Positions 949 to 50,919 of a stretch of 60,258 nucleotides of DNA are shown here, in pieces (within the stretch, counting starts at the first letter, position 1; each line of letters opens with the position of its first letter). The notes beneath the pieces are model-generated. The model saw only the letters and a list, made by a program, of their open reading frames with translations, was not told the origin of the DNA and did not search any database. Where the stretch lies: assembly GCA_023474215.1 (NCBI GenBank), contig JAMCYI010000004.1, forward strand, positions 1 to 60,258, written 5' to 3'. Position numbers and translations under genes: made by a program. The DNA comes from Patescibacteria group bacterium (GTDB lineage Bacteria; Patescibacteriota; Minisyncoccia; UBA6257; GWB1-50-10).

Positions 949-1311
949 CTAGGATTTATGCAGGTTTTTAGTTGTCGCTATATAGCCGTTCAATCTCACC
1001 AGGAGATTCCTGAGATCACCCACCAGATCCTCGGCTTTCTTGCCATCAACTATCCCCCTCTCTTTTAGTACATCAACCCAATGGATGGACTCAAATAAAG
1101 AACCCCTCGCATTGTAGTTAAATTTATTTCTATCGAGGTAATGAAACCGGCCAAAACCCTCTGCGACATTCGCCGCTATTGAGTCTATGGCAGTGATAAA
1201 CTGATCTCCAATTACCTTTCTCGTCCGCCAATCAAATTGCTCATAAAGCGCCCACCCTTTCCCCGAAATAATTCTTGCAAGCTTATAAACTTCTAGATCC
1301 CCCAACTCCAT
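949..1311 (-). CDS. Four helix bundle protein (IVP / 23S-intervening-sequence-protein family)
   Basis: 120 aa with family motifs DLEVYKLA, DQ...A.DSIAANVAEG.GR and ARGSL.E. Confidence 0.85.
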   Translation of the reverse strand: MELGDLEVYKLARIISGKGWALYEQFDWRTRKVIGDQFITAIDSIAANVAEGFGRFHYLDRNKFNYNARGSLFESIHWVDVLKERGIVDGKKAEDLVGDLRNLLVRLNGYIATTKNLHKS

Positions 1312-1314
1312 CTT

Positions 1315-1355
1315 ACGTCCATTATCCTCTATCTATTCTCTTCTATCCAGCATCT
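1315..1355. repeat. Degenerate heptamer array upstream of four-helix-bundle gene
   Basis: Minus strand ggataga-agagaat-agataga-ggataat-ggacgta just before the ATG; partly complementary to the downstream array. Confidence 0.5.
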
Positions 1356-1356
1356 G

Positions 1357-2109
1357 TCAGATGCGCCAGGAGACGGTGGCGAAAATGATCGATGAAATGA
1401 CGATAAAAAGGGTTATTTCCCGAAAAACAAAGGAGGAATTCAAAAACCCGCGCACATGGGCCAGCACCGTATCCCGGGATATGAGTAAAAGGAGCGACAT
1501 AAAGGCTGCCGCATTCAAGAAACCGAGAGGTAGAAAGACGACGATCGTCGCAAGCTCGGCGGAAAGAACGCCGAGGGTCATGCCGTAGAGGCGCATTTTG
1601 CGCGATTCCCACGAAGCGAAGGTTTGCCAATACTCCTTAAAGAGCCAGTAGACCACCGCAAAAGCGAAAAAGAGCCACCAAAACTCACTCCAGAATGAAT
1701 TTTCCGAAAATGAAGGTGTCCGCGAAAAAAGAACCGCAAAAAAGGAAAAGGCGACGGCGATGGAAGTCAAGCCGTACGCAAAAAACTTATTCGAAAAAAC
1801 GGCTCCCATGAGTCCCAAAAGGGCAAAGAGGATCAAGCCGTAGACCAGAAGGAGGAGACTCGGGAGCGAAAACGAGGCAAGCGCAAGGAGAAACACAATC
1901 TGAAGCAGCCAAAAAGAAAATCTGAAATCGCGGCGGGCGGCACCCGCTGTCAAGTAAACGTAGAGGAGAACGCATAAAAATCCAAAAACCGCGAAGAAAG
2001 AGAACGAAGCGAGGTAGACCAAGTAAAGCGCCGCAACCCCGAGGAGCGTTTTCTCAAGCAACCTCCACGTTGTTCGATTTATTAACGAAGATATGAACCT
2101 CTTTACCAT
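1357..2109 (-). CDS. Multi-pass membrane protein, unknown function
   Basis: 250 aa, about 8 hydrophobic segments, overlaps the clpB 3' end. Confidence 0.7.
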
Positions 2110-4681
2110 CTTTCAAAAGTCCCCTGACCATTTTGTCCGCCAAAGCATCCACGATCACCTTTTGGATCAAACGCTTGATCGGCCGCGCGCCGTAGTTCGG
2201 ATCGAACCCGTGCTCAACCAAATAGCGCCGAACTTCCGGTTTGATCTTCAAGGATATTCCCCTGCCGGCAAGGCGACGCTCGACCTCGCCAATCTGGATG
2301 TCGACGATATGTTCGACATCCTTCGGCGTCAGCGATTTGAAGATGATGGTCTCGTCGAGCCGGTTCAGAAATTCCGGCTTGAAGGTTTCCCGCAAGGATT
2401 CCATCACCTTTTCCCTGAATGATTCTTCTTTCGTTTCCAACTCCTCGGCTTCGCCGATCTCAAATCCCAAACCGGACATTTCTTTGAGGTAATGGCTTCC
2501 GACATTCGATGTCAAAATAATGATCGTATTCCTGAAATTGACCGTTTTCCCCTTGCCGTCGGTCAGCCGTCCGTTATCTAAAACCTGGAGGAGGATATTA
2601 AATACCTCCGGATGCGCTTTTTCGATCTCATCGAACAAGATCAAGCTGTAAGGCCGGTGCCGGACAATCTCCGTAAGCTGGCCGCCTTCTTCATGACCGA
2701 CGTACCCCGGCGGCGAACCGATGAGGCGCGATACCGCATGGCGTTCCATATATTCCGACATATCGATCCGGACGAGCGATTTTTCGTCGTTGAACATGAA
2801 AGCCGAGAGCGCACGCGCAAGTTCCGTCTTCCCGACGCCGGTCGGACCCAAAAACATAAAGGATCCGCTCGGCCGGTCTTCATCCGCGAGGCCGACGCGC
2901 GATCTGCGGAGCGCACGCGCAACCGCATTGATTGCCTCTTCCTGTCCCACCACGCGTTTTGCGAGCTCTTCTTCGATGCGGGCGAGTTTCTTCACCTCGG
3001 ATTCGAGCATTTTTGAGACCGGTATCCCCGTCCACCGCGAAACCACGGCAGCGATATCTTCCTCATCAACCGTTTCTTTGATGAATTTGCCGGCGCTTTG
3101 CTTTGTCTTTCCCCCTTTTTCCGTTTTTTGATAATCGCGCTCTGCCTTGGGAAGTTTCCCATACCGGATCTCTGCAACTTTGTCGAAATTCCCCTCCCGC
3201 TCGGCAAGCTCCGCCTCCCTCCGCAAATCCTCGATCTGCTTCCGAAGATCATGAAGGCCGCTTGCGCCCTTTTTCTCCGTTTCCCACCGCGCGGAAAGGT
3301 GGGTGTTCTCCAATTTCAATTTTTTGAGCTCTGCATTGATCTCTTTCAAGCGCGCCGGTGTCTTTTTCGAACCGTCCTTCGCGAGAGCCGATTTCTCAAC
3401 CTCGAGGCGCATAATCTCCTTCCGCACTCCTTCGATTTCGGAGGGAATGCTGTCCGATTCCAAGCGCCGCGCGGCAGCTGCCTCATCGATCAAATCGATC
3501 GCCTTGTCCGGCAAGAATCGATCGGTGATGTAGCGAGCGCTCAAATTGACCGCCGTAATGATGGCGTCATCGGTGATCTTCAAGCCGTGGTGCATTTCGT
3601 ATTTTTCTTTGAGTCCGCGGAGGATCGAGATCGAATCTTCAATCGAGGGTTCTTCAACCATCACCGGCTGGAAGCGCCGCTCGAGCGCCGCATCTTTCTC
3701 GATGTATTTTTGATATTCCTTCAAGGTCGTCGCGCCGATCGCGTGGAGTTCGCCGCGCGCAAGAGCCGGCTTCAAAAGATTCGAAGCATCAACCGCGCCT
3801 TCCGCGGCACCGGCGCCCACGATCATATGAATCTCGTCGATGAAGAGAATAATCTTTCCTTCCGCTTTTTCGATCTCCCGGAGAAACGCTTTCAACCGGT
3901 CCTCGAACTCGCCCCGAAACTTTGTTCCGGCGACCAAGGACCCCAGATCGAGCGTCAAAACTTCTTTATTTTTCAAAGGCTCCGGAACGTCGCCTTGAAC
4001 GATCTTTTCGGCGAGGCCTTCGACGATCGCGGTCTTTCCGACGCCCGGCTCGCCGATTAAAACCGGATTGTTCTTTGTGCGGCGCGAAAGGATCTGCATC
4101 ACCCGGCGGAGTTCTTCTTCCCGCCCGATCACCGGGTCGAGCTTCCCTTGCTTCGCCTTGTTTGTGAGATTGACGGCATATTTTTCGAGGACCTGGAACT
4201 TTGATTCCGGCGTCTCGTCCGTCACCCGAACCGACCCGCGAAGATCGTGAAGCGTGCGGTGCAGCAAGTCGCGCTTCACGCCCGCCTTCATCAAAATTTC
4301 GGCCGCCGGCGAAGGGACTTCGAGAAGCGCCAAGAACAAATGTTCGCAAGAAACGAACTCGTCCTTGTAGCGGCTTGCCACTTCCCCCGCTTTGTCCAAG
4401 ATCTTGATGATCTCCTGAGAAAGATACATTTGCCCCACGCTTCCGCTTGAAGCGAAAACCTTGGGGAGCAATTCGAGCGATTTTAAAACTTCGCGCTCGA
4501 GGCCCGGCAGATCGATGTTCATTTTTTCGAGGAGCGGGCGGACGAGCGTTTGATCGTCCCCCAAAAGCGCGTAAAGAAGATGAGTGGCCCGAAGTTCGCC
4601 GTGATTGTACCGGGCAACCATGTCCTGCGCCGATTGCAGGGCTTCCTGTGCTTTGATGGTAAACCGTTGAAAATTAGGCAT
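2054..4681 (-). CDS. clpB: ATP-dependent disaggregase ClpB
   Basis: 875 aa. Clp N-domain, Walker A GEPGVGKT and GPTGVGKT, Walker B LFIDEIH and LFDEIEK, coiled-coil M-domain, GYVG pore loop. Confidence 0.95.
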
Positions 4682-4699
4682 ATATGTTAATTATACGTC

Positions 4700-4748
4700 A
4701 TTCTACCTCCCTTTACGAGGATTAGCAAGAGAGCGGGTTGAGCGCTAA
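4700..4748 (-). promoter_or_regulatory. CIRCE-like (HrcA) operator overlapping a sigma70 promoter of clpB
   Basis: Plus strand 4722-4748 TTAGCAAGA-N9-GAGCGCTAA versus consensus TTAGCACTC-N9-GAGTGCTAA. Minus strand TTGCTA-N17-TAGAAT. Confidence 0.7.
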
Positions 4749-4752
4749 TACG

Positions 4753-6048: not shown

Positions 6049-6828
6049 TTACTTGATCTCGTACTGAAGTGTTACAGAAACGTTTACCTCGTTGGAGCCG
6101 GGTTCGATGGTCGGCGCGGGCACCGCTGCACCGCCTGCCGAACCTACCGACATCGTTCTTGCATAATCATACATCGGCTGCACGGTATTGTTGCTTGCAT
6201 TGATGGAAAGAAGGCGGCCCACCGAAAATCCCGCTTCGCTTGCGATCTCTTGTGCCTGCGCTTCGGCTTTTTGGATCGCCTGCGCCCGAGCTTCGGCTTG
6301 AACCGACGTCGGATCGTCGATCGTGAAGTTGAGCGACGAAACCGAATTTGCGCCGTTCGAGACGACGCCCGAGAGGATATCGCCGATCTTCGAGAAATCC
6401 CTGACTTTAACGGCGAGGTTTTGCGTCACCGTATATCCGACGATGGTCGGCACGCAGGGCGTTACGCTCGAGAGCGGATTCTGACAATACTGGTACCGCG
6501 GCGAAATGTTGTAACCGCTCGTCTGAATGTCTTTTTGATCGACGCCTTCGCCCTTCACAAAGCCCACGACCTTATTCATGGCAGTGGTGTTCTGCGATTG
6601 GAGCGATCCCAAATCTTTGCCGCCTTCCGTCACGACGCTCGCCGTGAATTCGGCAACGTCGGGAGCGGCAGTCGCCTTACCGCTCGCGGTAACGTAAAAG
6701 CTCCGATACGACGACGGCTGGACCGCATTGCCGTACGTACCGGCCGCCGAAAGCGCCGCATAGCCGACCGCGAGCACCGCAAGAATGATTGCGACGTATA
6801 ATACCCCCTTTGTTTTCTCTGTATTCAT
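6049..6828 (-). CDS. SIMPL domain (DUF541) protein
   Basis: N-terminal TM; V.ASG.A.A.PD.A, DIQTS.Y.I.P.Y and IEPG..EV.VSVTL.YEI patterns. Confidence 0.85.
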   Translation of the reverse strand: MNTEKTKGVLYVAIILAVLAVGYAALSAAGTYGNAVQPSSYRSFYVTASGKATAAPDVAEFTASVVTEGGKDLGSLQSQNTTAMNKVVGFVKGEGVDQKDIQTSGYNISPRYQYCQNPLSSVTPCVPTIVGYTVTQNLAVKVRDFSKIGDILSGVVSNGANSVSSLNFTIDDPTSVQAEARAQAIQKAEAQAQEIASEAGFSVGRLLSINASNNTVQPMYDYARTMSVGSAGGAAVPAPTIEPGSNEVNVSVTLQYEIK

Positions 6829-6844
6829 ATTCCTATTATAACAA

Positions 6845-6932
6845 ATTTTGAATTATAGAATTTTGAATTTCGATTGAATTCGAGAATTCATAAATTAAAT
6901 AATTCATTCGAAATTAAATCATTCGAAATTTA
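6845..6932. repeat. Inverted heptamer-repeat element, copy A1 (AATTTTG/TTCGAAA flavour)
   Basis: aattttgaatttcgattgaattcgagaattcataaattaaataattcattcgaaattaaatcattcgaaatt; nearly identical to 8830-8908. Confidence 0.8.
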
Positions 6933-8216
6933 AACTATCTTTTTGATTCTTCGGATTACCTCATCTATCTCTTTTCTCGTTGTTGTAATGCCGAAGCTGA
7001 ACCGGACGCTCCCCCGCACGCGCTCTTCGGGAAACCCCAGGGCATGGAGAACATGCGACGGCGTGAACGCCCGGGCCGAACAGGCCGAACCGGCCGAAGC
7101 CGCGATCCCCGCTTGATCGAGCTGTACCAAAAAATCGCCGGTGAATTCGCTCGGGAAATAAACGTTCAGGATATGCGGCGCATCGGCATTCCCGTTGATC
7201 TCCGCTTTTTTATACGCAGCCTTGAGCTTCTTCCAAAAATAATTTTTGGCATCCCCGACATACTTTGCGTTTTTGTTCCGCGACGCATAGGCGAGTTCCA
7301 CCGCCTTTCCGAAGCCGGCGACCGCGGGCGTGTTCTCCGTGCCAGAACGAAAACCGAACTCTTGGCCGCCACCCGTCACCTGCGGTGACAGAAATTTCGA
7401 ATTTTGAATTTCGAATTTTGAATTTACGTACAAGGCGCCGACGCCTTTCGGGCCGTACACTTTTTGGCCGGAGAGGGTCATAAGGTCGACGCCGAGTTTT
7501 TCGACATCGCAATCGAGGTACATCAACGCCTGCGCAGCGTCGGTATGAAAGAGCGGGTAGGAGGAGAAACTTGCCTCACGAAAAGACGGGGTCTCACTCG
7601 GCCAGCGACTCGTTCGCCCCTTGGCTCTCGCCCTCGCTCTCTCGCTTCGCTCGAACCCTGCCCGCTCGGACTCCGAGACACTTTTCTTAGAGACAAGTTT
7701 CTCCTCCTTAAATTTTTCTATGACGCTTGAGATTTTTTTAATTGGCTGGATGGTACCGATTTCGTTGTTCACATACATCACGGAGACGAGGATGGTTCGT
7801 TCATCGAGCGCTTCTTCCAATTTTTTGAGATCGACGACCCCCTTTTTGTCGACTGGGAGGACGACGACCTCGACGCCGTCACGTTCAAGCTCATGGGCGG
7901 TATCGAGAACCGATTCGTGTTCGATAGCCGAAACGATTACCTTGGGGGTTGGTCCTCCGTACCCTCGCACGATCCCGCGGAGCGCTAGGTTATTCGCTTC
8001 CGTTGCGGACCCGGTAAAAATGACTTCGCGGAATTCGGCGCCGATCGAGCGGGCAAACACCTCGCGAGCGGCATCCACGGCGGCCATCGCTTCTTGGCCG
8101 AATGAGTGGAGCGAACCCGGGTTGCCGTATTTCTCGGAAAAATACGGCAGCATTGTTTTTAAAGCCTCCGGACGGACTGGAGTTGATGCCGCATAATCTA
8201 AATAAATCTTTTTCAT
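6930..8216 (-). CDS. iscS: Cysteine desulfurase (IscS/NifS-type) carrying two repeat-derived in-frame insertions
   Basis: YLDYAAST, GNPGSLH, FTGSATEANN, HTDAAQ, SGQKVYGPKGVG, RSGTEN, AGSAC. Start placed at MKKIY (8216); the track starts at 8231. Confidence 0.9.
   Translation of the reverse strand: MKKIYLDYAASTPVRPEALKTMLPYFSEKYGNPGSLHSFGQEAMAAVDAAREVFARSIGAEFREVIFTGSATEANNLALRGIVRGYGGPTPKVIVSAIEHESVLDTAHELERDGVEVVVLPVDKKGVVDLKKLEEALDERTILVSVMYVNNEIGTIQPIKKISSVIEKFKEEKLVSKKSVSESERAGFERSERARARAKGRTSRWPSETPSFREASFSSYPLFHTDAAQALMYLDCDVEKLGVDLMTLSGQKVYGPKGVGALYVNSKFEIQNSKFLSPQVTGGGQEFGFRSGTENTPAVAGFGKAVELAYASRNKNAKYVGDAKNYFWKKLKAAYKKAEINGNADAPHILNVYFPSEFTGDFLVQLDQAGIAASAGSACSARAFTPSHVLHALGFPEERVRGSVRFSFGITTTRKEIDEVIRRIKKIV
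7391..7425. repeat. Heptamer-repeat tract in frame within iscS
   Basis: gaaatttcgaattttgaatttcgaattttgaattt encodes NSKFEIQNSKF. Confidence 0.75.
7559..7708. mobile_element. Palindromic miniature element inserted in frame in iscS (150 bp)
   Basis: Perfect 15-bp inverted ends aggaggagaaacttg / caagtttctcctcct. Core ctcgccctcgctc...gcccgctcggactccgagac is shared with 20089, 34208 and 42156. Confidence 0.75.
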
Positions 8217-8228
8217 GGTTTCAAGTAT

Positions 8229-8362
8229 CAAACAAAAACCTAAATCCTAAGCACTAAATTCTAAACAATATCCAAATCCAAAATCATAATGACCGAAACG
8301 TGTTTGGTATTTGGCGCTTTGAGCTTTATTTAGGATTTAGGATTTGGAATTTAGGATTTCGT
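8229..8362. repeat. Inverted heptamer-repeat element (CTAAATC/GATTTAG flavour)
   Basis: cctaaatcctaagcactaaattctaaac ... tttaggatttaggatttggaatttaggatt, between the mgtC-family stop and iscS. Confidence 0.8.
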
Positions 8363-8363
8363 C

Positions 8364-8816
8364 TTATTCTGGGATTTCCTTCACGCCGATCTTGCGGGTA
8401 ATGAACAAGACGAGAGCCAAGCCGATCGCGCTTAAAAACGCGAACGAGAAAAGTCCGATGCCGCACAAGATGCCCAAGCTCGCAACGACCCACACCGTTG
8501 CCGCGGTCGTCAAACTCCGCACCTTATTCCCTTCATGAAGAATGACGCCGGCGCCCAAGAAACCGACGCCGACGACGATGTTCCCGACAACCGTAAGGAA
8601 TCCGCTGTTCCGCGCGATGACATCTGCGAGATTGCCGACTTGAACGACATACGGCAGCGTGATGCCGACCATCGTGAAGATGGCCGCACCCGCCGCAACC
8701 ATGAGATCAGTCCGAATACCCGCTTCTTTGCCCATAAGTTCCCGCTCGAGGCCGATGATCGCGCCGACCACGACCGCGGCACCCAGGCGAAGAAGCATGT
8801 CTTGAAGAGTTAACAT
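8364..8816 (-). CDS. MgtC/SapB family membrane protein
   Basis: LLRLGAAVVVGAIIGLERE...AGIRT...; GVGFLGAGVI; SLTTAATVW. Confidence 0.9.
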   Translation of the reverse strand: MLTLQDMLLRLGAAVVVGAIIGLERELMGKEAGIRTDLMVAAGAAIFTMVGITLPYVVQVGNLADVIARNSGFLTVVGNIVVGVGFLGAGVILHEGNKVRSLTTAATVWVVASLGILCGIGLFSFAFLSAIGLALVLFITRKIGVKEIPE

Positions 8817-8829
8817 GAGTTAATTATAC

Positions 8830-8908
8830 AATTTTGAATTTTGAATTTCGATTGAATTCGAGAATTCGTGAATTAAGTAATTTACTCGAAATTAAATCAT
8901 TCGAAATT
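8830..8908. repeat. Inverted heptamer-repeat element, copy A2
   Basis: aattttgaattttgaatttcgattgaattcgagaattcgtgaattaagtaatttactcgaaattaaatcattcgaaatt; near-duplicate of 6845-6932. Confidence 0.8.
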
Positions 8909-8911
8909 CTC

Positions 8912-9487
8912 TTATTCGTACCTGGGGTTGGTTTCTTTGACGCCGGCCTTGTAGTTCGCATACCGCGCAAGAGCAAAGAACAAACTCGAAAGCCGGTTCA
9001 TGAATATCCCCGATTCTTCCGATATCTTTTTCTTTTCGCCGAATTTCACGAGCGTCCGTTCGGCCCGCCTCGCCAAGGTCCGCGCAAAGTCGAGCGATGC
9101 TCCCATCGGACTCCCGCCGGGGATGATAAAATTTCTGATGGGCGGAATCTTCGAATCGATCTCCAAAATGACGCTTTCCATGAACTGCGATTTCTCCACA
9201 TCGATCTTTTTAAAATCCTTCACCGAATATTCGAAACCGACGGCTGCAACTTCCGCCTGGAGCATGAACAGGCTCTCCTCGACGAAGATGAGGATCTTGT
9301 CGAAGGAAAGTTTTTTGAGCTTGAAATTATTTTTCGGAGTTATCTTCGAGCGGCACACGCCGAGCCACGCGTTCAATTCGTCGAGATCGCCCAGCACGTC
9401 GAAGAGCGGCGAGCTTTTCGGCAGGCGCTTGTTCCCGTATAAACTCTTTCCTCCGTCCCCCCGGCCGGTATAGAAGTTAGTCTTCAT
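8912..9487 (-). CDS. PduO-type ATP:cob(I)alamin adenosyltransferase family protein
   Basis: FYTGRGDGGKS, LGDLDELNAWLG, FIIPGGS...LDFART.ARRAER, NRLSSLFFALARY. Confidence 0.9.
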   Translation of the reverse strand: MKTNFYTGRGDGGKSLYGNKRLPKSSPLFDVLGDLDELNAWLGVCRSKITPKNNFKLKKLSFDKILIFVEESLFMLQAEVAAVGFEYSVKDFKKIDVEKSQFMESVILEIDSKIPPIRNFIIPGGSPMGASLDFARTLARRAERTLVKFGEKKKISEESGIFMNRLSSLFFALARYANYKAGVKETNPRYE

Positions 9488-10268
9488 GACGATAACTTTT
9501 CTCTAATTGTACTCTATCCACGGGAGCTGAGCGATCCCACATATACTTGAACCACGCGCGATATCCATCCGCAAGATCAGCACTTCGAATAACAAAAAAG
9601 ACCGCTTTATTACTCATTTTACCAAGCATAAGACCCGCATAGGTTACGACATAATCACCAAATACCTGAATTCCGGAATTGAGAGCCGAATACCCCTTCG
9701 GTAAGAAACGGAATTCGCCCTTTCCCCCAAAACCCCTCAAGAGGTCGAGGCGGGATTTCATCTCATAATCATACAATCCGCGGAATACTATTTTTTTGCG
9801 ATTTGCTTCTCTGAAGAAAGCCGATCGTGCAGTCGACAAGCGATCGTCCTGCCATCCCCCCTTCGCGCCAATAAAATAGCTATCCTTACCAACGCGAAGA
9901 ATGTCCCGCCAAATATTTTTTTGACCCTCGAGACCCCGGTAAATATAAATCTCCTCCGATGCGACGCGGTGCTCAAACTTCTTTTTCAACTCCGGCAGAA
10001 TGGCCGCCAATTTTTCCTGTTTTTCCCCCAAGAGCTCCGTCAACTTATCCGGATCGACGGCATTGTATTTATTCTCCCCCGGTGAAACGATTTGAAAACA
10101 CAATCCTTTGTCAACAAGTCGCTGAATGGCATCGTAAGCATTCCGGCGATGGATACCGGCGGCAAGAGCGATCTCTGAAACAGATGATTCACCCTTCTCA
10201 ATAAGAGAGAGGTACATTTTTGCCTCATTGGGACTCAATCCCAAACTCTCAAATATTTCGTTTTCCAT
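9477..10268 (-). CDS. TrmB-family HTH transcriptional regulator
   Basis: LGLSPNEAKMYLSL...S.SEIA...GIHRRNAYDAI.RL..KGL winged helix plus C-terminal effector-like domain. Start placed at MENEIF. Confidence 0.8.
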   Translation of the reverse strand: MENEIFESLGLSPNEAKMYLSLIEKGESSVSEIALAAGIHRRNAYDAIQRLVDKGLCFQIVSPGENKYNAVDPDKLTELLGEKQEKLAAILPELKKKFEHRVASEEIYIYRGLEGQKNIWRDILRVGKDSYFIGAKGGWQDDRLSTARSAFFREANRKKIVFRGLYDYEMKSRLDLLRGFGGKGEFRFLPKGYSALNSGIQVFGDYVVTYAGLMLGKMSNKAVFFVIRSADLADGYRAWFKYMWDRSAPVDRVQLEKSYRHED

Positions 10269-10379
10269 ATTTTTAGTGGTGGCTATCGACACCCTATGGT
10301 GCTATTGGCCACTCAATAATAAAAGCATACGCTTCCCCACAGTTGTTTGTCAAACCACCTTAAGAAAGGAGTAATTACT

Positions 10380-10970: not shown

Positions 10971-10978
10971 ATTTATAC

Positions 10979-11018
10979 AAACAGACGGACTTCCCGAGAA
11001 GCCGTCTGTTTTTGTTTT
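10979..11018. terminator. Intrinsic terminator between convergent genes
   Basis: aaacagacgg...ccgtctgttt stem followed by a T-rich tract. Confidence 0.7.
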
Positions 11019-15053: not shown

Positions 15054-15328
15054 GCCGTGGTAGCTCAGTGGTAGAGCATTCGCCTGAACTCTTCGGGCAC
15101 CGATTCAGCAATGAGCCGGAAAAAACTGGGTGAATTCGGGGAAACTTCGCAAGAACAATCCCGAGCCAAGCCCCAACAAGAAGGTTGGGGAAGGTGTAGA
15201 GACTATCCCTTCGGGGAGTACCTCGATGTAAATCGGGGGAAGCGCCCAGCTCCGCAGAAGCGGATGATGATATAGTCCAACTTCGCAGGAAGAGCGATTG
15301 GTCGGGGGTTCGATTCCCTCCCGCGGCA
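15054..15328 (+). tRNA. tRNA-Phe(GAA) split by a group I intron (exons 15054-15085 and 15289-15328)
   Basis: Joined exons: GCCGTGG TA GCTC AGTGGTA GAGC A TTCGC CT|GAA GA GCGAT TGGTC GGGGG TTCGATT CCCTC CCGCGGC A. Confidence 0.88.
15086..15288 (+). mobile_element. ORF-less group I self-splicing intron (203 nt, IC3-like)
   Basis: P AATTCGGGGAAAC, Q AATCCCGAGC, R GTAGAGACTA, S GATATAGTCC. P1 GCCU/GGGC with U.G at the 5' splice site, P10 ctcttc/gaagag, terminal omega-G. Confidence 0.88.
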
Positions 15329-15329
15329 C

Positions 15330-15368
15330 AAATTCGAAATGCGTCCTTGGTGGACGCGTTTTGAATTT
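15330..15368 (+). terminator. Hairpin/terminator after tRNA-Phe
   Basis: aaattcgaaa-tgcgtcc-ttggt-ggacgcg-ttttgaattt. Confidence 0.55.
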
Positions 15369-15403
15369 TATATCCCCGGGAATCAAATGAGGGTGAGTTT
15401 GTT

Positions 15404-18571: not shown

Positions 18572-20089
18572 ATGGAACTCATCCCCTGGATTGTGGGCAT
18601 TGTTGCAGGTTTGGCAATCGGATACGGCGTTCGGGTTTCAATCGCCAAGCGCCTTCAAAACTCACTCGAGAAAAAAGCAGAAGCGGAACTTGAATCCGCA
18701 AAGTCGGAAGCAAAAGAGATCGTCGTCGAAGCGAAGGATAAGGCCTCCTCGATCCTCGAGAACGCCAACAAGGAAGAGCGCGACCGAAAACAGGAACTCC
18801 GGCAGCTTGAAGAACGCCTCTTGAAGCGCGAGGACCTGCTCGATCAAAAACTTCGGGAACTGGACAACGGCGAAAAATCGCTGAAGTCAAAAGAGAACGA
18901 GATCAAGGAAAAGGAAAATGACGTGGAACACCTCCGCGAGCGCGCCGTCGGCGAGCTTGAAAAGGTTTCGGGGCTCACGAGGGAGGAAGCGCGGAAGGCG
19001 ATGTTCGAAGAGATCGAAACATCCGCAAAACAAGATCTCGCAACGTCGCTCGCCAAACTCGAACGCGAGCGCGAAGAAGAAATAGAAAAGAAAGCGAACG
19101 AGATCATCACGACAGCGATCCAGCGGTATTCGAGGAACGCGATCGCCGATGTGACGACCTCCGTCGTCGGACTCCCCGACGAAGACATCAAAGCGAAGAT
19201 CATCGGAAAAGAAGGGAGAAATATCCGGGCCTTCGAGCGCTTGACCGGCGTTGAGGTCATCGTGGACGAAACGCCGGAGAACGTGGTCCTTTCGTCATTC
19301 GATCCGATGCGACGCGAACTCGCCAAAATGGCGCTCGAAAAGCTCATCAAGGACGGCAGGATCCACCCCGCAAAGATCGAAGAGAAAGTCGAGGAAGCGC
19401 GCCAAGAACTCGAACAAAGGATACAAAAGATAGGAGAAGAGGCGGCATACGAAGTCGGCATTTTAGACCTTCCAAAAGAAATCGTGAATCTCCTCGGCAG
19501 ATTGAATTTCAGGACGAGCTACGGCCAAAACGTACTGCTCCACTCGGTTGAAATGGCGCACATCGCCGGCATGATGGCAACCGAACTCCACCTGAACGTC
19601 GATGTCGCAAAGAAGGGGGCCCTTCTTCACGACATCGGGAAAGCCGTCGACCATGAAGTGGAAGGAACGCACGTTGAGATCGGCAGAAAACTCTTGAAGA
19701 AGTACGGCATTGCTGAAAACGTCATCCAAGCCATGGAATCGCACCACGAAGAATACCCGTATGCGACGCCGGAATCGTACCTCGTCGCGGCAGCAGATGT
19801 CATTTCCGCGGCGCGGCCCGGCGCTCGGCGCGATACGCTCGAAAAATACATCAAGAGACTGGAAGACATCGAAAAGGCGGTCGGCAGCTTCGAAGGGGTC
19901 AAGCAATCGTATGCCGTTTCGGCAGGACGGGAAGTCAGAGTTTTCGTCGTCCCCGAGAAGATCGACGATTTTGGAGCCCTGGAACTCGCAAAGAAGATAT
20001 CCAACAAGATCCAATCGGACGTCCAATACCCCGGCGAGATCAAGGTAACCGTCATCCGTGAGGTGCGGGCGGTGGAGTACGCGAGGTAG
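18572..20089 (+). CDS. rny: Ribonuclease Y
   Basis: N-terminal TM, coiled coil, KH IIGKEGRNIR, HD motif LLHDIGKA, AAD.ISAARPGARR. Confidence 0.96.
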   Translation: MELIPWIVGIVAGLAIGYGVRVSIAKRLQNSLEKKAEAELESAKSEAKEIVVEAKDKASSILENANKEERDRKQELRQLEERLLKREDLLDQKLRELDNGEKSLKSKENEIKEKENDVEHLRERAVGELEKVSGLTREEARKAMFEEIETSAKQDLATSLAKLEREREEEIEKKANEIITTAIQRYSRNAIADVTTSVVGLPDEDIKAKIIGKEGRNIRAFERLTGVEVIVDETPENVVLSSFDPMRRELAKMALEKLIKDGRIHPAKIEEKVEEARQELEQRIQKIGEEAAYEVGILDLPKEIVNLLGRLNFRTSYGQNVLLHSVEMAHIAGMMATELHLNVDVAKKGALLHDIGKAVDHEVEGTHVEIGRKLLKKYGIAENVIQAMESHHEEYPYATPESYLVAAADVISAARPGARRDTLEKYIKRLEDIEKAVGSFEGVKQSYAVSAGREVRVFVVPEKIDDFGALELAKKISNKIQSDVQYPGEIKVTVIREVRAVEYAR

Positions 20090-20598: not shown

Positions 20599-20620
20599 GA
20601 GGCTAAGGAATATTTCTTAA

Positions 20621-20648
20621 CAAAAAACTCCCCATAGGGAGTTTTTTG
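20621..20648. terminator. Bidirectional intrinsic terminator
   Basis: caaaaaactccc-cata-gggagttttttg. Confidence 0.8.
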
Positions 20649-20668
20649 TTTTATTTATTCACTTTTCT

Positions 20669-24013: not shown

Positions 24014-24220
24014 ATGATTCTTGCACTCCAAATAGCGGTTTCGATCATCCTCATCATCCTCGTCATCATTCAAGAGCGGGCAAGCGGCATTTCGGGCGTT
24101 TTCGGCGGGCAGGGCGCAACTCCCTACCAAACGAGAAGGGGGCTTGAAAAGACCATCTTCTATGCGACCATCGTATTCGCCGTCATTTTCGCGGCGCTTG
24201 CGATAGCGAATCTGCTCTAG
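24014..24220 (+). CDS. secG: Preprotein translocase subunit SecG
   Basis: LVIIQERASGISGVFGG...TRRGLEK.IFY.T two-TM pattern. Confidence 0.88.
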   Translation: MILALQIAVSIILIILVIIQERASGISGVFGGQGATPYQTRRGLEKTIFYATIVFAVIFAALAIANLL

Positions 24221-24299
24221 ATATAGACAGATAGAAACGGATATAATAGATATACAACATATCTCCGTCTTTATCCGTAGTATCCGTCTTATCTCGATT
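24218..24299. repeat. Degenerate inverted short-repeat element (GATA/TATCCG flavour)
   Basis: tagatatagacagatagaaacggatataatagatat opposed to atatctccgtctttatccgtagtatccgtcttatct; starts at the secG stop. Confidence 0.6.
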
Positions 24300-24301
24300 T
24301 C

Positions 24302-30620: not shown

Positions 30621-30660
30621 AGGAGCGGTTTCATCAAAAGAACCGCTCCTACTTTTTTAT
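30621..30660. terminator. Intrinsic terminator at convergent junction with ileS
   Basis: aggagcggtt...aaccgctcct-acttttttat. Confidence 0.7.
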
Positions 30661-33600
30661 TCCGATCCAGATCGGGTCGCCGTCGAATTTCGTCTCGATC
30701 TCGACATCGAACTTGTCGGAACGCCTAAGAAGAATGTCCGAAGCGTTTATTTCTTTCATCAGGAGCTTTTTATTGCGCTCCACAATATTTTTAACCTCGG
30801 GTTGGGCTTCGACGAGAAGCGTTATCTTGTCTTTGGGGACAAACCCGCCGTCTTGGCGAAGATCTTGGATCATGCGCACGAGCTCGCGAACCGTTCCCTC
30901 TTCTTTGAGCTCCGGCGTGATCACCGTGTCGAGGACGAAATCCTCTTTTAACTTGGAGTCGAAGGTCACTTCTTTTACATTGATTTCATCCTTTAAAATT
31001 TCGAGAAGAGCCGCATCCATCTTCGATCTCGAATCCTTGACCGCGAGCGACGCGAGGGGCTGGCGTACTTTGATCCCCAATTCCGCACGCTTTGCGAGAG
31101 CAGCACTCGCGAGATCGCGCACCGTCTTCATGCCGTGTAACAATTTCGAGTTCCGAGTTTCGAGTTTTGGGCTGGTCTTAGGCCATTCCTCCAGGTGGAC
31201 CGAGAGCTCACCCTTCAAAGAGACGGACTGATAGAGCGCATCGGCGAAGAACGGCATAAAAGGAGCAAGGAGCTTGGTAAGTTCGGTAAGACAATACCGG
31301 AGCGTCGCCGACGCCGCGGCATAATCCTTCTTGTTGTCCGGCTTTTGGAGCCGCCTCCGCGAACGGCGGATATACCACCGCGAAAGGTCGTTCACGAACT
31401 CTTCAATCGACTTGCCGGCGCCGCCGATATCATACGCATCAAGGGCTTTGGTCGAAACAGCGATGGCTTCGTCGAGGCGCGCGATGACCCACCGATCGAG
31501 AACGTTCGATTTCGCGGTCGGCGCTTTATATTTGGCGCTTTTATCGGCGTACGTCCGGTAGAAAACGTACGAGTTGTACATCATGAGGATGAACTGACGG
31601 AGCACTTTCCCGAGGTCTGCTTCGTCGAAGCGCTTCGGTTCGCCCGGCGCATTCACGGTATAAAAATACCACCGGACGGTATCGGCGCCGTATTTTTGGA
31701 TCATGTCCCACGGGCTCACGGTATTTCCCTTTGACTTCGACATCTTTTGGGCGTTCTTATCGAGCAGGAGGCCCAAGGAGATCACGTTCCGGTACGGTGC
31801 TTTTTTCTTCAAGAGCGTTGCGACGGCAAGGAGCGTATAGAACCAGCCGCGCGTTTGATCGATCCCTTCAACGATGTAATCGGCGGGATACAGAAGCTTT
31901 GTCTTGTTCTCGAAAGGATAGTGGTCTTCGGCGAAGGGCATCGATCCGGAATCGAACCAAACGTCCGCGACCTCGGGAATCCGCTTCATCGTCCCGCCGC
32001 ATGTGCATTGAAAAACGGCTTCGTCGACGTACGGCTTATGGAGATCGATCTCGCCGGTATCGTTCCGGGGGATCATTTTGAGGCTGAGCTTCCGGATTTC
32101 GGCGAACGTTATAAAATCATCGCCCCGCTTTTCTTTTTCAGCGATCGCCTCGCGCTCCGTCCACCCTTCGGCAACCTGGAAAAGCATCCAAATCGGGTAC
32201 TCGTGCGTCACGAGAAGGATGTTCTTTCCTTCATACTTCAACTCGCATTCCTTGAGGAAATTCCACAAGCGCGTCCGAAGATCGCGGACCGACTCCCCTC
32301 CTTCGGGCCGCCGCTCGAATTTCGACTGAAAGGTCGGGAAAAGCACGTGGTATTTCTCATCGTGGCAGCCCATGAGGTCCGCCCCCAATTGGATCTCTTC
32401 AAGACGCTTGTCCACCTTCGCATCCGCCGTGCCCAGGATCCCAAGATCAATCTCATCGGTTTCCTTCGTCCGCAAAATATCGGACGTGATGACGACGTCG
32501 ATCTTCTTCCCTTTCCGGGCAAGCTCGTGCTTGAACTTTTTGATCGACAATTCGACTTGCCGCTTGCCACGGGCGGTCAGGTGGAATTTCGTTTTTGTCG
32601 CATCGATGATATCAAGGACGTTGTTTTCCGCTTCGCCGTGGCGCATGACCCAATAGCTGTTCTTCGGGCGGCCGAGTTTTTTTGCGAGCTCGCCGACGCC
32701 CCCTAAGACTTCGGTCCTGCCGCATTTTTTACAGACCCAAACCGGAAGCGGCGTTCCCCAATACCGTTCGCGCGAGATCGCCCAATCCTTGACATCCTTC
32801 AGCCATTCGCCGAATCTTCCGTTTTTGATGGTCGCAGGGACCCAGTTCACCGTCTTATTCGAAGCCAAAAGCTCGCGCTTCAATTTGGACATGCCGATGA
32901 ACCACGAATCGCGCGCGTAGTAAAGGATCGGCGTGCCACATCGCCAGCAAAACGGGTATTCGTGCTCGTACTTTTCGGTCTTTAAAAGGAAATTCCGCTC
33001 CTTGAGAAGTTCGAATATCTTTTCTTCGGTTTCTTTCGCCTTCACGTACATCCCCGCAAGCTCAGGGACATCGGCGGTGAATTTCCCCAACGTATCGACG
33101 GTATGATGTTTCGGCAAGCCGACCTTCGTTCCCAATTGGTAATCGTCCTCGCCGTACATGACGGCCGTATGAACGACGCCGGTCCCGTCTTCGGTCGTCA
33201 CGAAATCGGCCGGATATACCCGATACGAGCTCTCTGTTTTCAATTTTTTGACGTCGAAGAGCGGCTCATACCGCAAGCCGACGAGATCCTTGCCACTGAA
33301 AATATTGAGTATCTGGTATTTAGTATTGAGTACTTTATCTGCCAAAAGAGAAGCGATAATGTATTTTTCATCGCTCCCTTCAATACTGACTACTGTATAC
33401 TTGATACTCTCGCCAACTGCGAGGGCGACATTTCCGGGGAGCGTCCACGGCGTCGTCGTCCATGAAAGGACATAGGTATTGCCATCGGTCGTAAAGCTTC
33501 TGCCGATCGTCTGGTTCGGCAAAAGCCTGAACTTCATGTACACCGACATATCCTCGGTCGTCTTGTACCCTTGGGCGAGCTCGTGCGACGACAAGGCCGT

Positions 33601-50789: not shown

Positions 50790-50919
50790 TATACCCTCTC
50801 CGAAATCCAAAGCCCAAATGACAAATGTCAAATCAATATCAAGGCTCAAATTTCAAATTTTGACATTCGGCTGTTTGGATTTAATTTGATATTTGGAATT
50901 TGGATTTTGAAATTGACAT
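50790..50919. repeat. Inverted heptamer-repeat element (CAAAT/ATTTG flavour) ending in the rpsT -35 box
   Basis: cgaaatccaaagcccaaatgacaaatgtcaaatc ... ttggatttaatttgatatttggaatttggattttgaaattgaca; TTGACA-N17-TACTAT follows. Confidence 0.75.

What the first reader, a model, noticed from the sequence alone, without database searches (positions are those of the whole stretch)
6845..8908. Cluster of intergenic inverted heptamer-repeat elements, two nearly identical
Seen: three consecutive intergenic gaps (6845-6932, 8229-8362, 8830-8908) are filled by 80-130 bp of 7-mer arrays arranged as a left array and a reverse-complement right array. Copies 6845 and 8830 share a ~70-nt string almost base for base. 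This points to duplication of a unit rather than independent slippage. Each lies right after a stop codon; two end just before a TATAAT. Related elements with other heptamer flavours occur at 24218 and 50790. Inference: a family of foldback elements whose repeat alphabet drifts while the architecture is kept. They could be terminators or RNA-processing signals, or a selfish MITE-like system.
Basis: partly seen in the sequence, partly recalled or inferred. Interest (0 to 1): 0.75.

Follow-up and report, generated by a model that had tools for sequence, protein, structure and literature searches.

The report
Heptamer-repeat foldback elements between genes
The tiny spaces between genes of this ultra-small (Patescibacteria) bacterium are filled by fast-changing, AT-rich 7-base repeat arrays that fold back on themselves; they are real, vary between strains, also sit in-frame inside enzymes, and one repeat type (AATTTYG) turns up in many unrelated bacterial phyla.

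Summary
Three consecutive gaps between minus-strand genes (6829-6929, 8217-8363, 8817-8911) hold AT-rich elements built from ~7-nt units, with a left arm and a reverse-complement right arm. E1 and E3 are 93% identical over 72 nt. The 50796-50911 element is of the same kind. The 24214-24301 element is a foldback with ~9-nt units.

Each element starts 0-3 nt after the upstream stop codon. Each ends at the downstream gene's -10 box, which lies 6-8 nt before the ATG, suggesting leaderless promoters.

The elements are not fixed. E2 is absent in conspecific strains, and the E5 slot holds an unrelated heptamer array in another strain. The E1 and E3 sites are empty in a sister species. Orthologous gaps in five related lineages carry other repeat types.

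The same arrays and foldbacks sit in-frame in loops of the cysteine desulfurase gene. AATTTYG arrays occur in 119 or more genome stretches from many phyla.

No target-site duplication, transposase or canonical terminator features were found.

Best reading: repeat DNA resembling cyanobacterial STRR heptamer arrays, made by 7-nt slippage plus inverted duplication, copied locally and swapped by short-patch recombination, with side effects on expression. I rate it a new variant of a known kind.

The parts
8817..8911 (-). E3: AATTTCG/CRAAATT foldback filling the gap between Cob_adeno_trans and MgtC. The repeat unit shared with E1 is 8822-8908. In sense orientation it reads: stop, GAG, AATTTCG arm, AATGATTTAATTT core, CRAAATT arm, then the TTGTATAAT -10 box (8828-8823), 6 nt, ATG.
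   Evidence: (TCGAAA-17-TATAAT, 10/12)
8217..8363 (-). E2: a 147-nt AAATCCT/ATTTAGG long hairpin between MgtC and the aminotransferase, followed by UUUUUGUUUG. It is present (diverged) in two related lineages and absent in conspecific strains L002, L004 and L007, where the MgtC stop overlaps the ATG (ATGA).
   Evidence: (z -4.3)
6829..6929 (-). E1: a copy of the E3 unit (6844-6930) between the aminotransferase and SIMPL. It carries an internal TTCTATAATT (6857-6852) homologous to E3's -10 box, upstream of the resident TTGTTATAAT (6840-6835). The site is empty in sister lineage L008.
7391..7427 (-). An in-frame AATTTYG heptamer array (4.7 units) inside the aminotransferase CDS. It encodes NSKFEIQNSKF in a loop that is 6 residues shorter in solved cysteine desulfurases.
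50796..50911 (.). E5: a CAAATGA/AATTTGR foldback filling the slot between the ruvA -10 box (50793-50788, minus strand) and the rpsT -35 box (TTGACA, 50913-50918). In strain GCA_027423705.1 it is replaced by an unrelated 40-nt GGATAC-type heptamer array.
24214..24301 (+). An AT-rich foldback after a stop codon and before the ATG at 24302. Its units are about 9 nt (TCCGTCTTA), not 7.
   Evidence: z -3.3
31142..31171 (-). An in-frame heptamer array (TTTCGAG type, peptide KLETRNSKL) inside the isoleucyl-tRNA synthetase-like ORF 30649-34161. A second, looser array lies at 33295-33341.

Best explanation
These are heptanucleotide-repeat foldback elements. They are a Patescibacteria version of the intergenic heptamer tandem repeats known from cyanobacteria (STRR), Xanthomonas (GGGAATC) and Beggiatoaceae (TAACTGA).

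Inferred mechanism:
(1) Unconstrained DNA between a stop codon and the next gene's -10 box grows by 7-nt replication slippage.
(2) An inverted copy of the array arises, and the two arms are kept complementary by hairpin-templated correction or by selection. This gives a left array and a reverse-complement right array whose unit sequence drifts.
(3) Whole units are occasionally copied to nearby slots. E1 was copied from an E3-like unit, including its TATAATT box.
(4) Alleles are exchanged between strains and lineages by very short-patch homologous recombination, so slots are filled, emptied or replaced.
(5) The same arrays are tolerated in-frame in surface loops of proteins, in the orientation that has no stop codon.

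Shown: existence, periodicity, inverted symmetry, copying, polymorphism, lineage-specific turnover, position relative to stop codons and -10 boxes, in-frame CDS copies, and wide taxonomic spread of the AATTTYG type.

Inferred: slippage, arm homogenisation, recombination as the exchange route, and any effect on expression. Possible effects are uncoupling of overlapping genes, a 3' RNA hairpin, and an AT-rich region upstream of leaderless promoters.
For: - Period 7 dominates in the window and in 865 kb of other genomes (281 arrays against 11-65 for periods 4-12). That second set was selected for one such array per locus.
- The arms are significantly self-complementary. Orthologous E2 copies in three lineages all fold strongly (z -4.3, -3.0, -5.1) although the arm sequences differ.
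- Orthologous gaps in L008, L011, L131/132, L133 and L135 carry different types or are empty.
- The period-7 register tends to continue from the last codons of the upstream gene into its own element (0.334 against 0.297 +/- 0.017 for permuted partners; 33/2000).
- E1 and E3 are near-identical, and E1 contains an extra TATAATT homologous to E3's -10 box.
- All AATTTYG copies in about 79 kb lie within 2.1 kb of each other.
- The filled and empty E2 alleles differ by 151 nt plus about 10 mostly synonymous substitutions within +/-30 nt. The next 4 kb is identical, and the empty allele resembles the empty L011 allele.
- The E5 slot is replaced wholesale, with identical flanks up to the two promoter boxes.
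- No transposase was found in the window.
- -10 boxes peak 6 and 8 nt before the ATG, with no Shine-Dalgarno peak, so the space upstream is weakly constrained.
- In-CDS inserts are heptamer arrays or foldbacks at the DNA level.
- Literature: heptanucleotide repeats are the most abundant long simple-repeat class in many bacteria, with slippage proposed as the cause (Mrazek 2007, as summarised in PMC4679880 and PMC4692102). Xanthomonas GGGAATC arrays include inverted pairs and vary between close species (PMC4692102).
Against: - Local slippage alone does not explain why the same AT-rich heptamer (AATTTYG), often with the same AATGATTTAATTT core, appears in many phyla, including genomes of 56-65% GC and housekeeping genes.
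- It also does not explain why 'CAAATGA-family' elements share 88-95% identity over 35-38 nt at non-orthologous sites in different species. Both facts point to some form of transfer or insertion.
- The orientation bias next to start codons (CRAAATT on the sense strand 21 times against 3) suggests selection or a directional mechanism.
- The continuity test is only modestly significant.
- No experiment or transcript data bear on any step.
Confidence: 0.5

Rival explanations
1. These are selected cis-regulatory modules. The hairpin in the mRNA right after the stop codon would stabilise the upstream message, act as an RNase III/RNase Y processing site, or insulate and terminate read-through. The A-rich CRAAATT arm on the sense strand would act as an upstream or leader enhancer, or as a 7-nt-per-monomer binding array for OB-fold proteins (Csp, S1), for the downstream leaderless or non-Shine-Dalgarno gene.
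For: - The elements sit exactly between the stop codon and the -10 box.
- E2 is kept as a hairpin in three lineages. In all three it folds better on the sense strand than on the antisense strand (by 3.6, 3.8 and 12 kcal/mol), and in the window it is followed by a U-tract.
- Across phyla, arrays within 15 nt of a start codon read CRAAATT on the sense strand 21 times against 3. TAACTGA repeats likewise lie just upstream of start codons, and Csp and S1 were proposed as binders, with CspB binding one heptamer per protein (PMC4679880).
- The genome encodes RNase Y and RNase J.
Against: - The elements are dispensable. E2 is absent in conspecific strains, E1 and E3 are absent in the sister lineage, and the slots carry unrelated sequences.
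- E1 and E3 fold no better than many shuffles (z -1.2 to -2.4).
- The sense-over-antisense advantage holds in only 12 of 18 elements.
- Promoter-like and terminator-like sites are not enriched over shuffles.
- Canonical terminators exist elsewhere in the window.
- A (CAAAATT)3-containing fragment upstream of Lyngbya jamI had no promoter activity on its own in E. coli (PMC2799420).
- In-frame CDS copies cannot serve this role.
Confidence: 0.25
2. These are true MITE-like transposable elements. The heptamer arrays would be arrays of transposase-binding sites in terminal inverted repeats, mobilised in trans by an enzyme encoded elsewhere. Solo arrays, including those in coding sequences, would be remnants or insertions.
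For: - Fixed polarity of the foldbacks: AATTTYG first and CRAAATT second in 12 cases against 3.
- Near-identical E1 and E3.
- A CAAATGA family at non-orthologous sites within and between species.
- A shared AATGATTTAATTT core in elements from Patescibacteria, Latescibacterota, Bdellovibrionales and others.
- AT-rich arrays inside housekeeping genes of genomes at 54-58% GC, and in 56-65% GC genomes generally, which look inserted rather than home-grown.
Against: - There is no clean target-site duplication. The E2 filled and empty alleles differ by clustered substitutions typical of allele replacement.
- No transposase was found in 60 kb.
- There are only two E1/E3 copies in about 79 kb, and they lie close together.
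- Each slot has its own repeat type, unlike classical MITE families.
- There are only 5 matches in 2.9 million viral contigs.
Confidence: 0.15
3. This is chance low-complexity AT-rich spacer DNA with no repeat structure beyond its composition.
For: The RNA-fold z-scores of E1 and E3 are weak.
Against: Shuffles never reproduce the period-7 arrays, the E1/E3 alignment score (65 against a shuffle maximum of 27) or the inverted symmetry of E2, E3 and E5.
Confidence: 0.01

Closest known systems
Cyanobacterial STRR (short tandemly repeated repetitive) heptamers, and heptanucleotide long simple-sequence repeats in general (Mazel 1990 and Mrazek 2007, from my own knowledge and as cited in PMC4679880 and PMC4692102)
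   Same: The units are 7 nt in tandem arrays. They are mostly intergenic, differ in length and sequence between close relatives, and have no known function. Slippage has been proposed as the origin.
   Different: Here the arrays are short (3-5 units) and paired with a reverse-complement arm. Each slot has its own unit sequence, rather than about 100 copies of one heptamer per genome. The host is a Patescibacteria genome.
Xanthomonas GGGAATC and Nostoc GGGGAYT heptamer repeats (PMC4692102)
   Same: They are intergenic heptamer arrays, and some form inverted pairs able to make stem-loops. [quoted passage not shown]
   Different: Those repeats are G-rich and form quadruplexes. The elements here are AT-rich with no G-runs.
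TAACTGA direct repeats of Beggiatoaceae, Cyanobacteria and Bacteroidetes (PMC4679880)
   Same: The same heptamer is scattered over distant phyla with no evident transfer mechanism. Arrays lie a few nucleotides upstream of start codons with a strand preference, and only one orientation is stop-free.
   Different: The unit is different. Those are mostly direct arrays (one inverted case in 170). The elements here are typically foldbacks that fill the whole spacer.
REP/BIME elements of enterobacteria and pseudomonads
   Same: They are imperfect palindromes in the spacers of co-directional genes, just after stop codons, and their presence varies between strains. They form hairpins in mRNA.
   Different: REPs are 20-40 nt, GC-rich, share one conserved sequence per genome in hundreds of copies, and are linked to RAYT transposases. 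None of that is seen here.
Rickettsia palindromic elements (RPE) and enterobacterial small mobile sequences found inside genes (PMC2759123, PMC2229807)
   Same: They are palindromic non-coding repeats that are also found inserted in-frame in conserved protein-coding genes, adding loops to the proteins.
   Different: RPEs are 100-150 bp families with conserved sequence and no heptamer sub-structure. No sequence relationship was tested.
MITEs such as Neisseria Correia elements (from my own knowledge)
   Same: They are small foldbacks in intergenic regions that abut or create -10 boxes and form RNA hairpins.
   Different: Correia elements have defined 26-bp terminal inverted repeats, a TA target duplication and hundreds of near-identical copies. 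None of these was found here.

Membership tests
Heptanucleotide tandem repeats (STRR / long simple-sequence repeat class) | Head-to-tail copies of a 7-nt unit, three or more copies | tested here: met
   TRF finds 8328-8359 with 4.6 copies, 7393-7425 with 4.7, 50883-50914 with 4.6, 6844-6870 with 3.7 and 8830-8848 with 2.7. Period 7 exceeds other periods and shuffles.
Heptanucleotide tandem repeats (STRR / long simple-sequence repeat class) | Located mainly in non-coding DNA | tested here: met
   Four intergenic elements in the window. Of 122 AATTTYG arrays in other genomes, 80 are intergenic by crude ORF calls.
Heptanucleotide tandem repeats (STRR / long simple-sequence repeat class) | One heptamer sequence present in many copies per genome | tested here: inconclusive
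   Only about 79 kb of this genome was seen. Each repeat type occupies 1-3 loci.
MITE | Terminal inverted repeats | tested here: inconclusive
   The arms are 74-94% complementary over 16-27 nt and significant against shuffles. However, they are repeat arrays without defined termini.
MITE | Target-site duplication flanking the insertion | tested here: not met
   The E2 filled/empty junction has no direct repeat beyond the overlapping ATGA and carries about 10 flanking substitutions. At E1 there is only a possible, degenerate 15-nt duplication of the C-terminal codons and -10 box.
MITE | Many dispersed near-identical copies | tested here: not met
   There are two copies (E1, E3) plus one in-CDS array, all within 2.1 kb, and none in the other roughly 77 kb. 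The metagenome scan for the core found 0 matches.
MITE | Cognate transposase with matching ends | tested here: not met
   Pfam scans of about 54 window ORFs found no transposase, RAYT or recombinase. The rest of the genome was not testable.
REP/BIME | Short conserved GC-rich palindrome repeated across the genome, with RAYT | tested here: not met
   The elements are 19-33% GC, slot-specific in sequence, and no RAYT gene is present in the window.
Intrinsic (Rho-independent) terminator | Short GC-rich stem followed by a U-tract | tested here: not met
   The scan finds none at E1, E2 or E3. The stems are AU-rich. Only E2 is followed by UUUUUGUUUG. Canonical examples exist at 20599-20668 and 10971-11018.
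Rfam RNA families | Match to a curated covariance model | tested here: not met
   Nothing at gathering threshold. There are only sub-threshold plant-miRNA hairpin hits on E2.
RPE-like in-frame palindromic insertions | Palindromic repeat inserted in-frame in a conserved gene, adding a loop | tested here: met
   Heptamer arrays or foldbacks sit at 3-5 loop hot spots of the cysteine desulfurase in this clade. The loops are absent from solved structures. Arrays were also found in 8 Pfam-confirmed housekeeping genes of other phyla. Sequence homology to Rickettsia RPEs was not tested.

The most novel reading that the evidence does not exclude
AATTTYG foldbacks, and their solo arrays, may be a pan-bacterial class of ultra-small (about 20-120 nt) horizontally spreading insertion elements. 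They would enter intergenic spacers and, in-frame, housekeeping genes in well over a dozen phyla by a mechanism that needs no element-encoded transposase and leaves no classical target duplication. The window's cluster would then be one active patch of it.
Probability: 0.25. Interest if true: 0.85.

Novelty: new variant of a known kind. Interest (0 to 1): 0.6.

Why it matters
Heptanucleotide repeats have been known since 1990 and were shown in 2007 to be the commonest long simple repeats in bacteria. Their origin and function are still open.

This locus offers an unusually clean natural experiment for four reasons:
- Slots are bounded to the base by a stop codon and a -10 box.
- Strains more than 99.9% identical in the flanks have the slots filled, emptied or refilled with a different heptamer array.
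- Copying of a whole unit between neighbouring slots is visible.
- The same arrays are written in-frame into essential enzymes.

It also shows that one AT-rich heptamer array is shared by distant phyla, including genomes of 56-65% GC. That is hard to reconcile with purely local slippage.

For Patescibacteria annotation there are practical consequences. These elements explain variable gene starts (for example the TTG 8231 call, and an N-terminal extension called in P0002). They also explain the highly variable lengths of conserved proteins, and they point to leaderless promoters.

Tried and rejected
1. A protein-database search with the array-encoded peptide (NSKFEIR)x6 gave 945 word candidates but none at E<=1e-3. 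It was uninformative, because the query is short and low in complexity.
2. A metagenome scan for the E1/E3 core TTCGATTGAATTCGAGAATTC gave 0 matches. The collection evidently lacks the contig that carries it (L003), so this says little about copy number.
3. Rfam searches at gathering and at E-value thresholds matched no real family.
4. The consensus promoter/terminator scan was not enriched over shuffles. Only E3's TCGAAA-17-TATAAT stands out.
5. Covariation analysis of E2 was not feasible. There are only three orthologues and the 3' half aligns poorly. I used per-sequence folding instead.
6. Sense versus antisense folding, used as a test for RNA-level selection, gave 12 of 18 elements better in sense, which is not significant.
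7. The viral contig scan gave only 5 hits, so there is no sign of a phage vector.
8. The canonical terminator reading and the classical MITE reading were rejected for the reasons given in the membership table.
9. A full-text search for the repeat sequences, and for repeats in Patescibacteria, found no description of these elements. The only literature instance is an unremarked (CAAAATT)3 upstream of Lyngbya jamI.
Full report
**1. What is there**

The genes in the 2-10 kb region are all on the minus strand. Read in gene direction, the order is:
- TrmB-family regulator (9477-10292)
- Cob_adeno_trans gene (8912-9487)
- E3
- MgtC (8364-8816)
- E2
- class-V aminotransferase / cysteine desulfurase (6930-8216)
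- E1
- SIMPL/DUF541 (6049-6828)
- HtrA-like protease
- ClpB

The aminotransferase starts at ATG 8216 and is 428 aa, as in public assemblies. It does not start at the TTG at 8231 that a mechanical ORF list gives.

The three gaps are 95, 147 and 101 nt long and 19-33% GC, in a window of about 52% GC.

The best protein matches are Patescibacteria of the Wolfebacteria, Liptonbacteria, Jorgensenbacteria and Minisyncoccia neighbourhood. The window is 99.9% identical to contig JAMCRU010000002.1 of GCA_023380715.1.

**2. Check of the observation**

Periodicity:
- Tandem Repeats Finder reports period-7 arrays at 6844-6870, 8328-8359, 8830-8848 and 50883-50914. It also reports one inside the aminotransferase gene at 7393-7425.
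- A strict scan finds four arrays at period 7, 0-2 at every other period from 4 to 15, and essentially none in 30 dinucleotide-preserving shuffles.
- E2's right arm (ATTTAGG x4.6) is a clean heptamer array. E1 and E3 have only about three clean AATTTTG/AATTTCG units, and the rest is irregular 7/8/15-nt units.

Inverted symmetry is significant. Shuffles reach the observed self reverse-complement score 15/500 times for E1, 0/500 for E2, 1/500 for E3 and 0/500 for E5. As single-stranded RNA, only E2 folds much better than shuffles (z -4.3). E1, E3 and E5 give z -1.2 to -2.4.

E1 and E3 are 87% identical over 87 nt and 93% over 72 nt. Their local alignment score is 65, against 14 +/- 2.6 (maximum 27) for shuffles.

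Of about 35 gaps of 40 nt or more in the window, only four have a strong period-7 signal: E1, E2, E3 and the ruvA/rpsT gap. The element at 24214-24301 is a significant foldback (z -3.3), but its units are about 9 nt.

**3. Anatomy relative to the genes**

In sense orientation each element begins 0-3 nt after the upstream stop codon.

E1 and E3 end at TTGTTATAAT and TTGTATAAT, exactly 6 nt before the ATG. The spacing TATAAT-N6-ATG is conserved for these two genes in the related lineages.

Across 54 crude gene calls in the window, strong -10-like hexamers pile up 6 and 8 nt before the ATG (9 genes). Shine-Dalgarno-like motifs show no preferred spacing. I infer that leaderless or near-leaderless promoters are common here.

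E5 fills the slot between the ruvA -10 box (minus strand) and the rpsT promoter TTGACA-17-TACTAT (plus strand).

**4. Comparison with relatives: the elements are not fixed**

Within the species:
- E2 is present in the window and in L001, L003, L005 and L006.
- E2 is absent in L002 (GCA_027423705.1) and in two independent read-set assemblies, L004 and L007. In those, the MgtC stop codon and the aminotransferase start codon overlap as ATGA.
- The two alleles differ by 151 nt plus about ten mostly synonymous substitutions within about 30 nt of the junction. The next 4 kb is identical, and the 10 kb on the other side is 99.94% identical.
- At these flanking positions the empty allele resembles the empty allele of the more distant L011. 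This pattern fits allele replacement by a very short recombination tract. It does not fit excision or transposition.
- At the ruvA/rpsT slot, GCA_027423705.1 carries an unrelated 40-nt array (CAGATAC TGGATAG TGGATAC CAAATAT) in place of the 116-nt E5. The flanks are identical right up to the two promoter boxes.

Between lineages (aminotransferase 62-75% identical to the window's by BLASTP; loci L008, L011, L131/132, L133, L135):
- The E1 site is empty in L008, where the stop codon lies inside TTGTTATAAT. In L011 it holds a 165-nt CAAATxx foldback, and other arrays fill it elsewhere.
- The E3 site holds 24 nt of TACGAAA-type units in L008 and a GTTACYR foldback in L132.
- E2 is present but diverged in L008 and L132, and absent in L011 and L135.
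- Gaps that are minimal in the window (SIMPL|HtrA, HtrA|ClpB) hold foldbacks in other lineages.
- Many of these fold strongly (z -5.1, -5.05, -3.2, -3.0, -2.7). Some are direct arrays only (z about 0).

**5. Copying between loci**

E1 contains an internal TTCTATAATT that aligns with E3's -10 box TTGTATAATT. It lies 12 nt upstream of the resident -10 box of the SIMPL gene, which is conserved in L008 and L011. So E1 looks like a copy of an E3-type unit that runs from just after the stop codon through the -10 box.

In the window plus 19 kb of flanking sequence, every AATTTYG copy (E1, E3 and the in-CDS array) lies within 2.1 kb.

A second family (CAAATGA type) links E5, two gaps of L011 and the interior of L132's E2. 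These share 88-95% identity over 35-38 nt at non-orthologous sites.

Other repeat types seen in relatives (GTTAC, AAATACT) occur elsewhere in this genome: in a gap at L144:15340-15445 and inside a Wzy_C gene.

**6. The same elements inside genes**

Cysteine desulfurase homologues of this clade range from 376 to 569 aa. The length differences sit at a few loop positions, and the inserted peptides are translations of heptamer arrays (NSKFEIRNSKF, FKIRNS, RESGIGY and others).

At the DNA level these are arrays or complete foldbacks. An example in L132 is TTTAGGG AATCGGG TATAGGG ... CCCTAGT CCCTAGA CCCCATA.

Solved cysteine desulfurases lack these segments. The window's NSKFEIQNSKF loop is 6 residues longer, and residues 167-220 are an extra insert.

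The isoleucyl-tRNA synthetase-like gene in the window also carries arrays.

**7. Beyond this clade**

The hits come from:
- many Patescibacteria classes;
- Bacteroidota, including a complete Flavobacterium genome and a Chryseobacterium type strain;
- Acidobacteriota at 56-65% GC;
- Verrucomicrobiota, Planctomycetota, Chloroflexota, Bdellovibrionota, Latescibacterota, a cyanobacterium and others.

A few hits (Bacillus, Acinetobacter, Treponema) look like chance.

By crude ORF calls, 80 of 122 arrays are intergenic. Of the 42 in ORFs, 32 have the stop-free CRAAATT strand as the coding strand. Eight of ten tested ORFs are Pfam-confirmed housekeeping genes.

Arrays within 15 nt of a start codon read CRAAATT on the sense strand 21 times against 3.

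A same-type inverted partner lies within 300 nt in 15 of 122 cases, where fewer than 1 is expected. The order is AATTTYG first and CRAAATT second in 12 cases against 3.

A core AATGATTTAATTT between the arms recurs in E1, E3 and in elements from several phyla.

Only 5 matches were found in viral contigs.

**8. What it is not**

- There is no Rfam family match.
- There is no canonical terminator. The stems are AU-rich, and there is no U-tract except after E2. The genome does have textbook terminators at 20599-20668 and 10971-11018.
- No transposase, RAYT or recombinase gene was found among the window's ORFs.
- There is no clean target-site duplication.

**9. Interpretation**

The closest known things are the heptanucleotide tandem repeats of bacteria:
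- STRR of heterocystous cyanobacteria (from my own knowledge);
- the general excess of 7-nt long simple repeats, for which slippage was proposed (Mrazek 2007, as summarised in PMC4679880 and PMC4692102);
- GGGAATC arrays of Xanthomonas, which include inverted pairs and vary between close species (PMC4692102);
- TAACTGA arrays, which sit just upstream of start codons and are scattered over phyla with no known vehicle (PMC4679880).

I take the window's elements to be a foldback variant of this kind in Patescibacteria. I infer the following steps:
- Arrays grow by 7-nt slippage in the only weakly constrained DNA available. The period-7 register tends to continue from the last codons of the upstream gene (p about 0.02).
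- The arms are kept complementary.
- Units are copied to nearby slots.
- Alleles are exchanged by short-patch recombination.

Expression effects are possible but untested. They include uncoupling of an ATGA overlap, a 3' hairpin, and an AT-rich region upstream of leaderless promoters. E2 is the best candidate for a selected RNA hairpin: it is conserved as a hairpin in three lineages, folds better on the sense strand in all three, and is followed by a U-tract in the window.

What this model does not explain is the cross-phylum identity of the AATTTYG arrays and their presence inside conserved genes of GC-rich genomes. That keeps an insertion or transfer mechanism open.

**10. Verdict**

They are not shown to be MITEs, and they are not canonical terminators. 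The novelty rating is a new variant of a known kind.

Noticed in passing
window 7559-7708 (minus strand, inside the aminotransferase CDS): A 150-nt in-frame insert with a near-perfect 19-bp terminal inverted repeat (AGGAGGAGAAACTTG...) and a GC-rich centre. It folds at -72.5 kcal/mol (z -4.8). It encodes about 50 residues that are absent from solved cysteine desulfurases. Similar inserts (EEKLVS...SETxFxExSFSS) sit at the same site in P0009 and P0087. It is a palindromic, RPE-like element of a different type from the heptamer foldbacks.
   Followed up: partly
window 15054-15329 (+): A tRNA-Phe(GAA) gene interrupted by a 203-nt group I intron (Rfam RF00028, 53 bits; ARAGORN with introns allowed). 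Plain tRNA scans miss it.
   Followed up: partly
window-wide; e.g. 6840-6835, 8828-8823, 50793-50788, and upstream of 4681, 13193, 14255, 34161, 42099, 48907: Strong -10 boxes (often TGnTATAAT) lie 6 or 8 nt before the ATG of at least 9 of 54 genes, and there is no Shine-Dalgarno spacing peak. This suggests that leaderless mRNAs are common in this organism.
   Followed up: partly
window 4721-4749 (minus strand, upstream of clpB): A conserved CIRCE-like inverted repeat, TTAGCGCTC-N9-TCTTGCTAA, followed by TAGAAT and TATAAT boxes. It is conserved in all related lineages although the surrounding spacers turn over. It is probably a heat-shock (HrcA-type) operator.
   Followed up: no
L002/L143/L145 (GCA_027423705.1) versus the window: The two conspecific assemblies are a mosaic. 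Blocks of 99.9-100% identity alternate with a block of about 97.7% (ClpB region, window 1250-4000), which indicates frequent homologous recombination in the population.
   Followed up: partly
L095:6900-7500, L100, L127 (Chitinophagaceae MAG CAZIZP01): A roughly 274-nt unit, tandemly duplicated and also present on two other contigs (86-96% identity). It is itself made of consecutive heptamer arrays of many types (GCCATTA, GTTTTAT, GTTATCA, AATTTTG, TTAGCAT and others). This is a larger heptamer-array repeat family in Bacteroidota.
   Followed up: partly
L142:14838-17481 (about 3-6 kb beyond the right end of the window): dnaN and dnaA lie just outside the window, and cumulative GC skew falls steadily across the whole window. 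The window therefore probably lies on one replichore next to the replication origin.
   Followed up: no
window 15330-15375: The hairpin after tRNA-Phe (GCGTCC-TTGGT-GGACGC) is flanked by AAATTCGAAAT and GTTTTGAATTT. The same AATTYG motif therefore extends a GC-rich terminator-like stem.
   Followed up: no
window 18572-20089, 27088-28803, 47552-48907: RNase Y, RNase J and a further beta-CASP RNase-like protein are encoded in the window. This is relevant to how AU-rich hairpin-containing transcripts would be processed.
   Followed up: no
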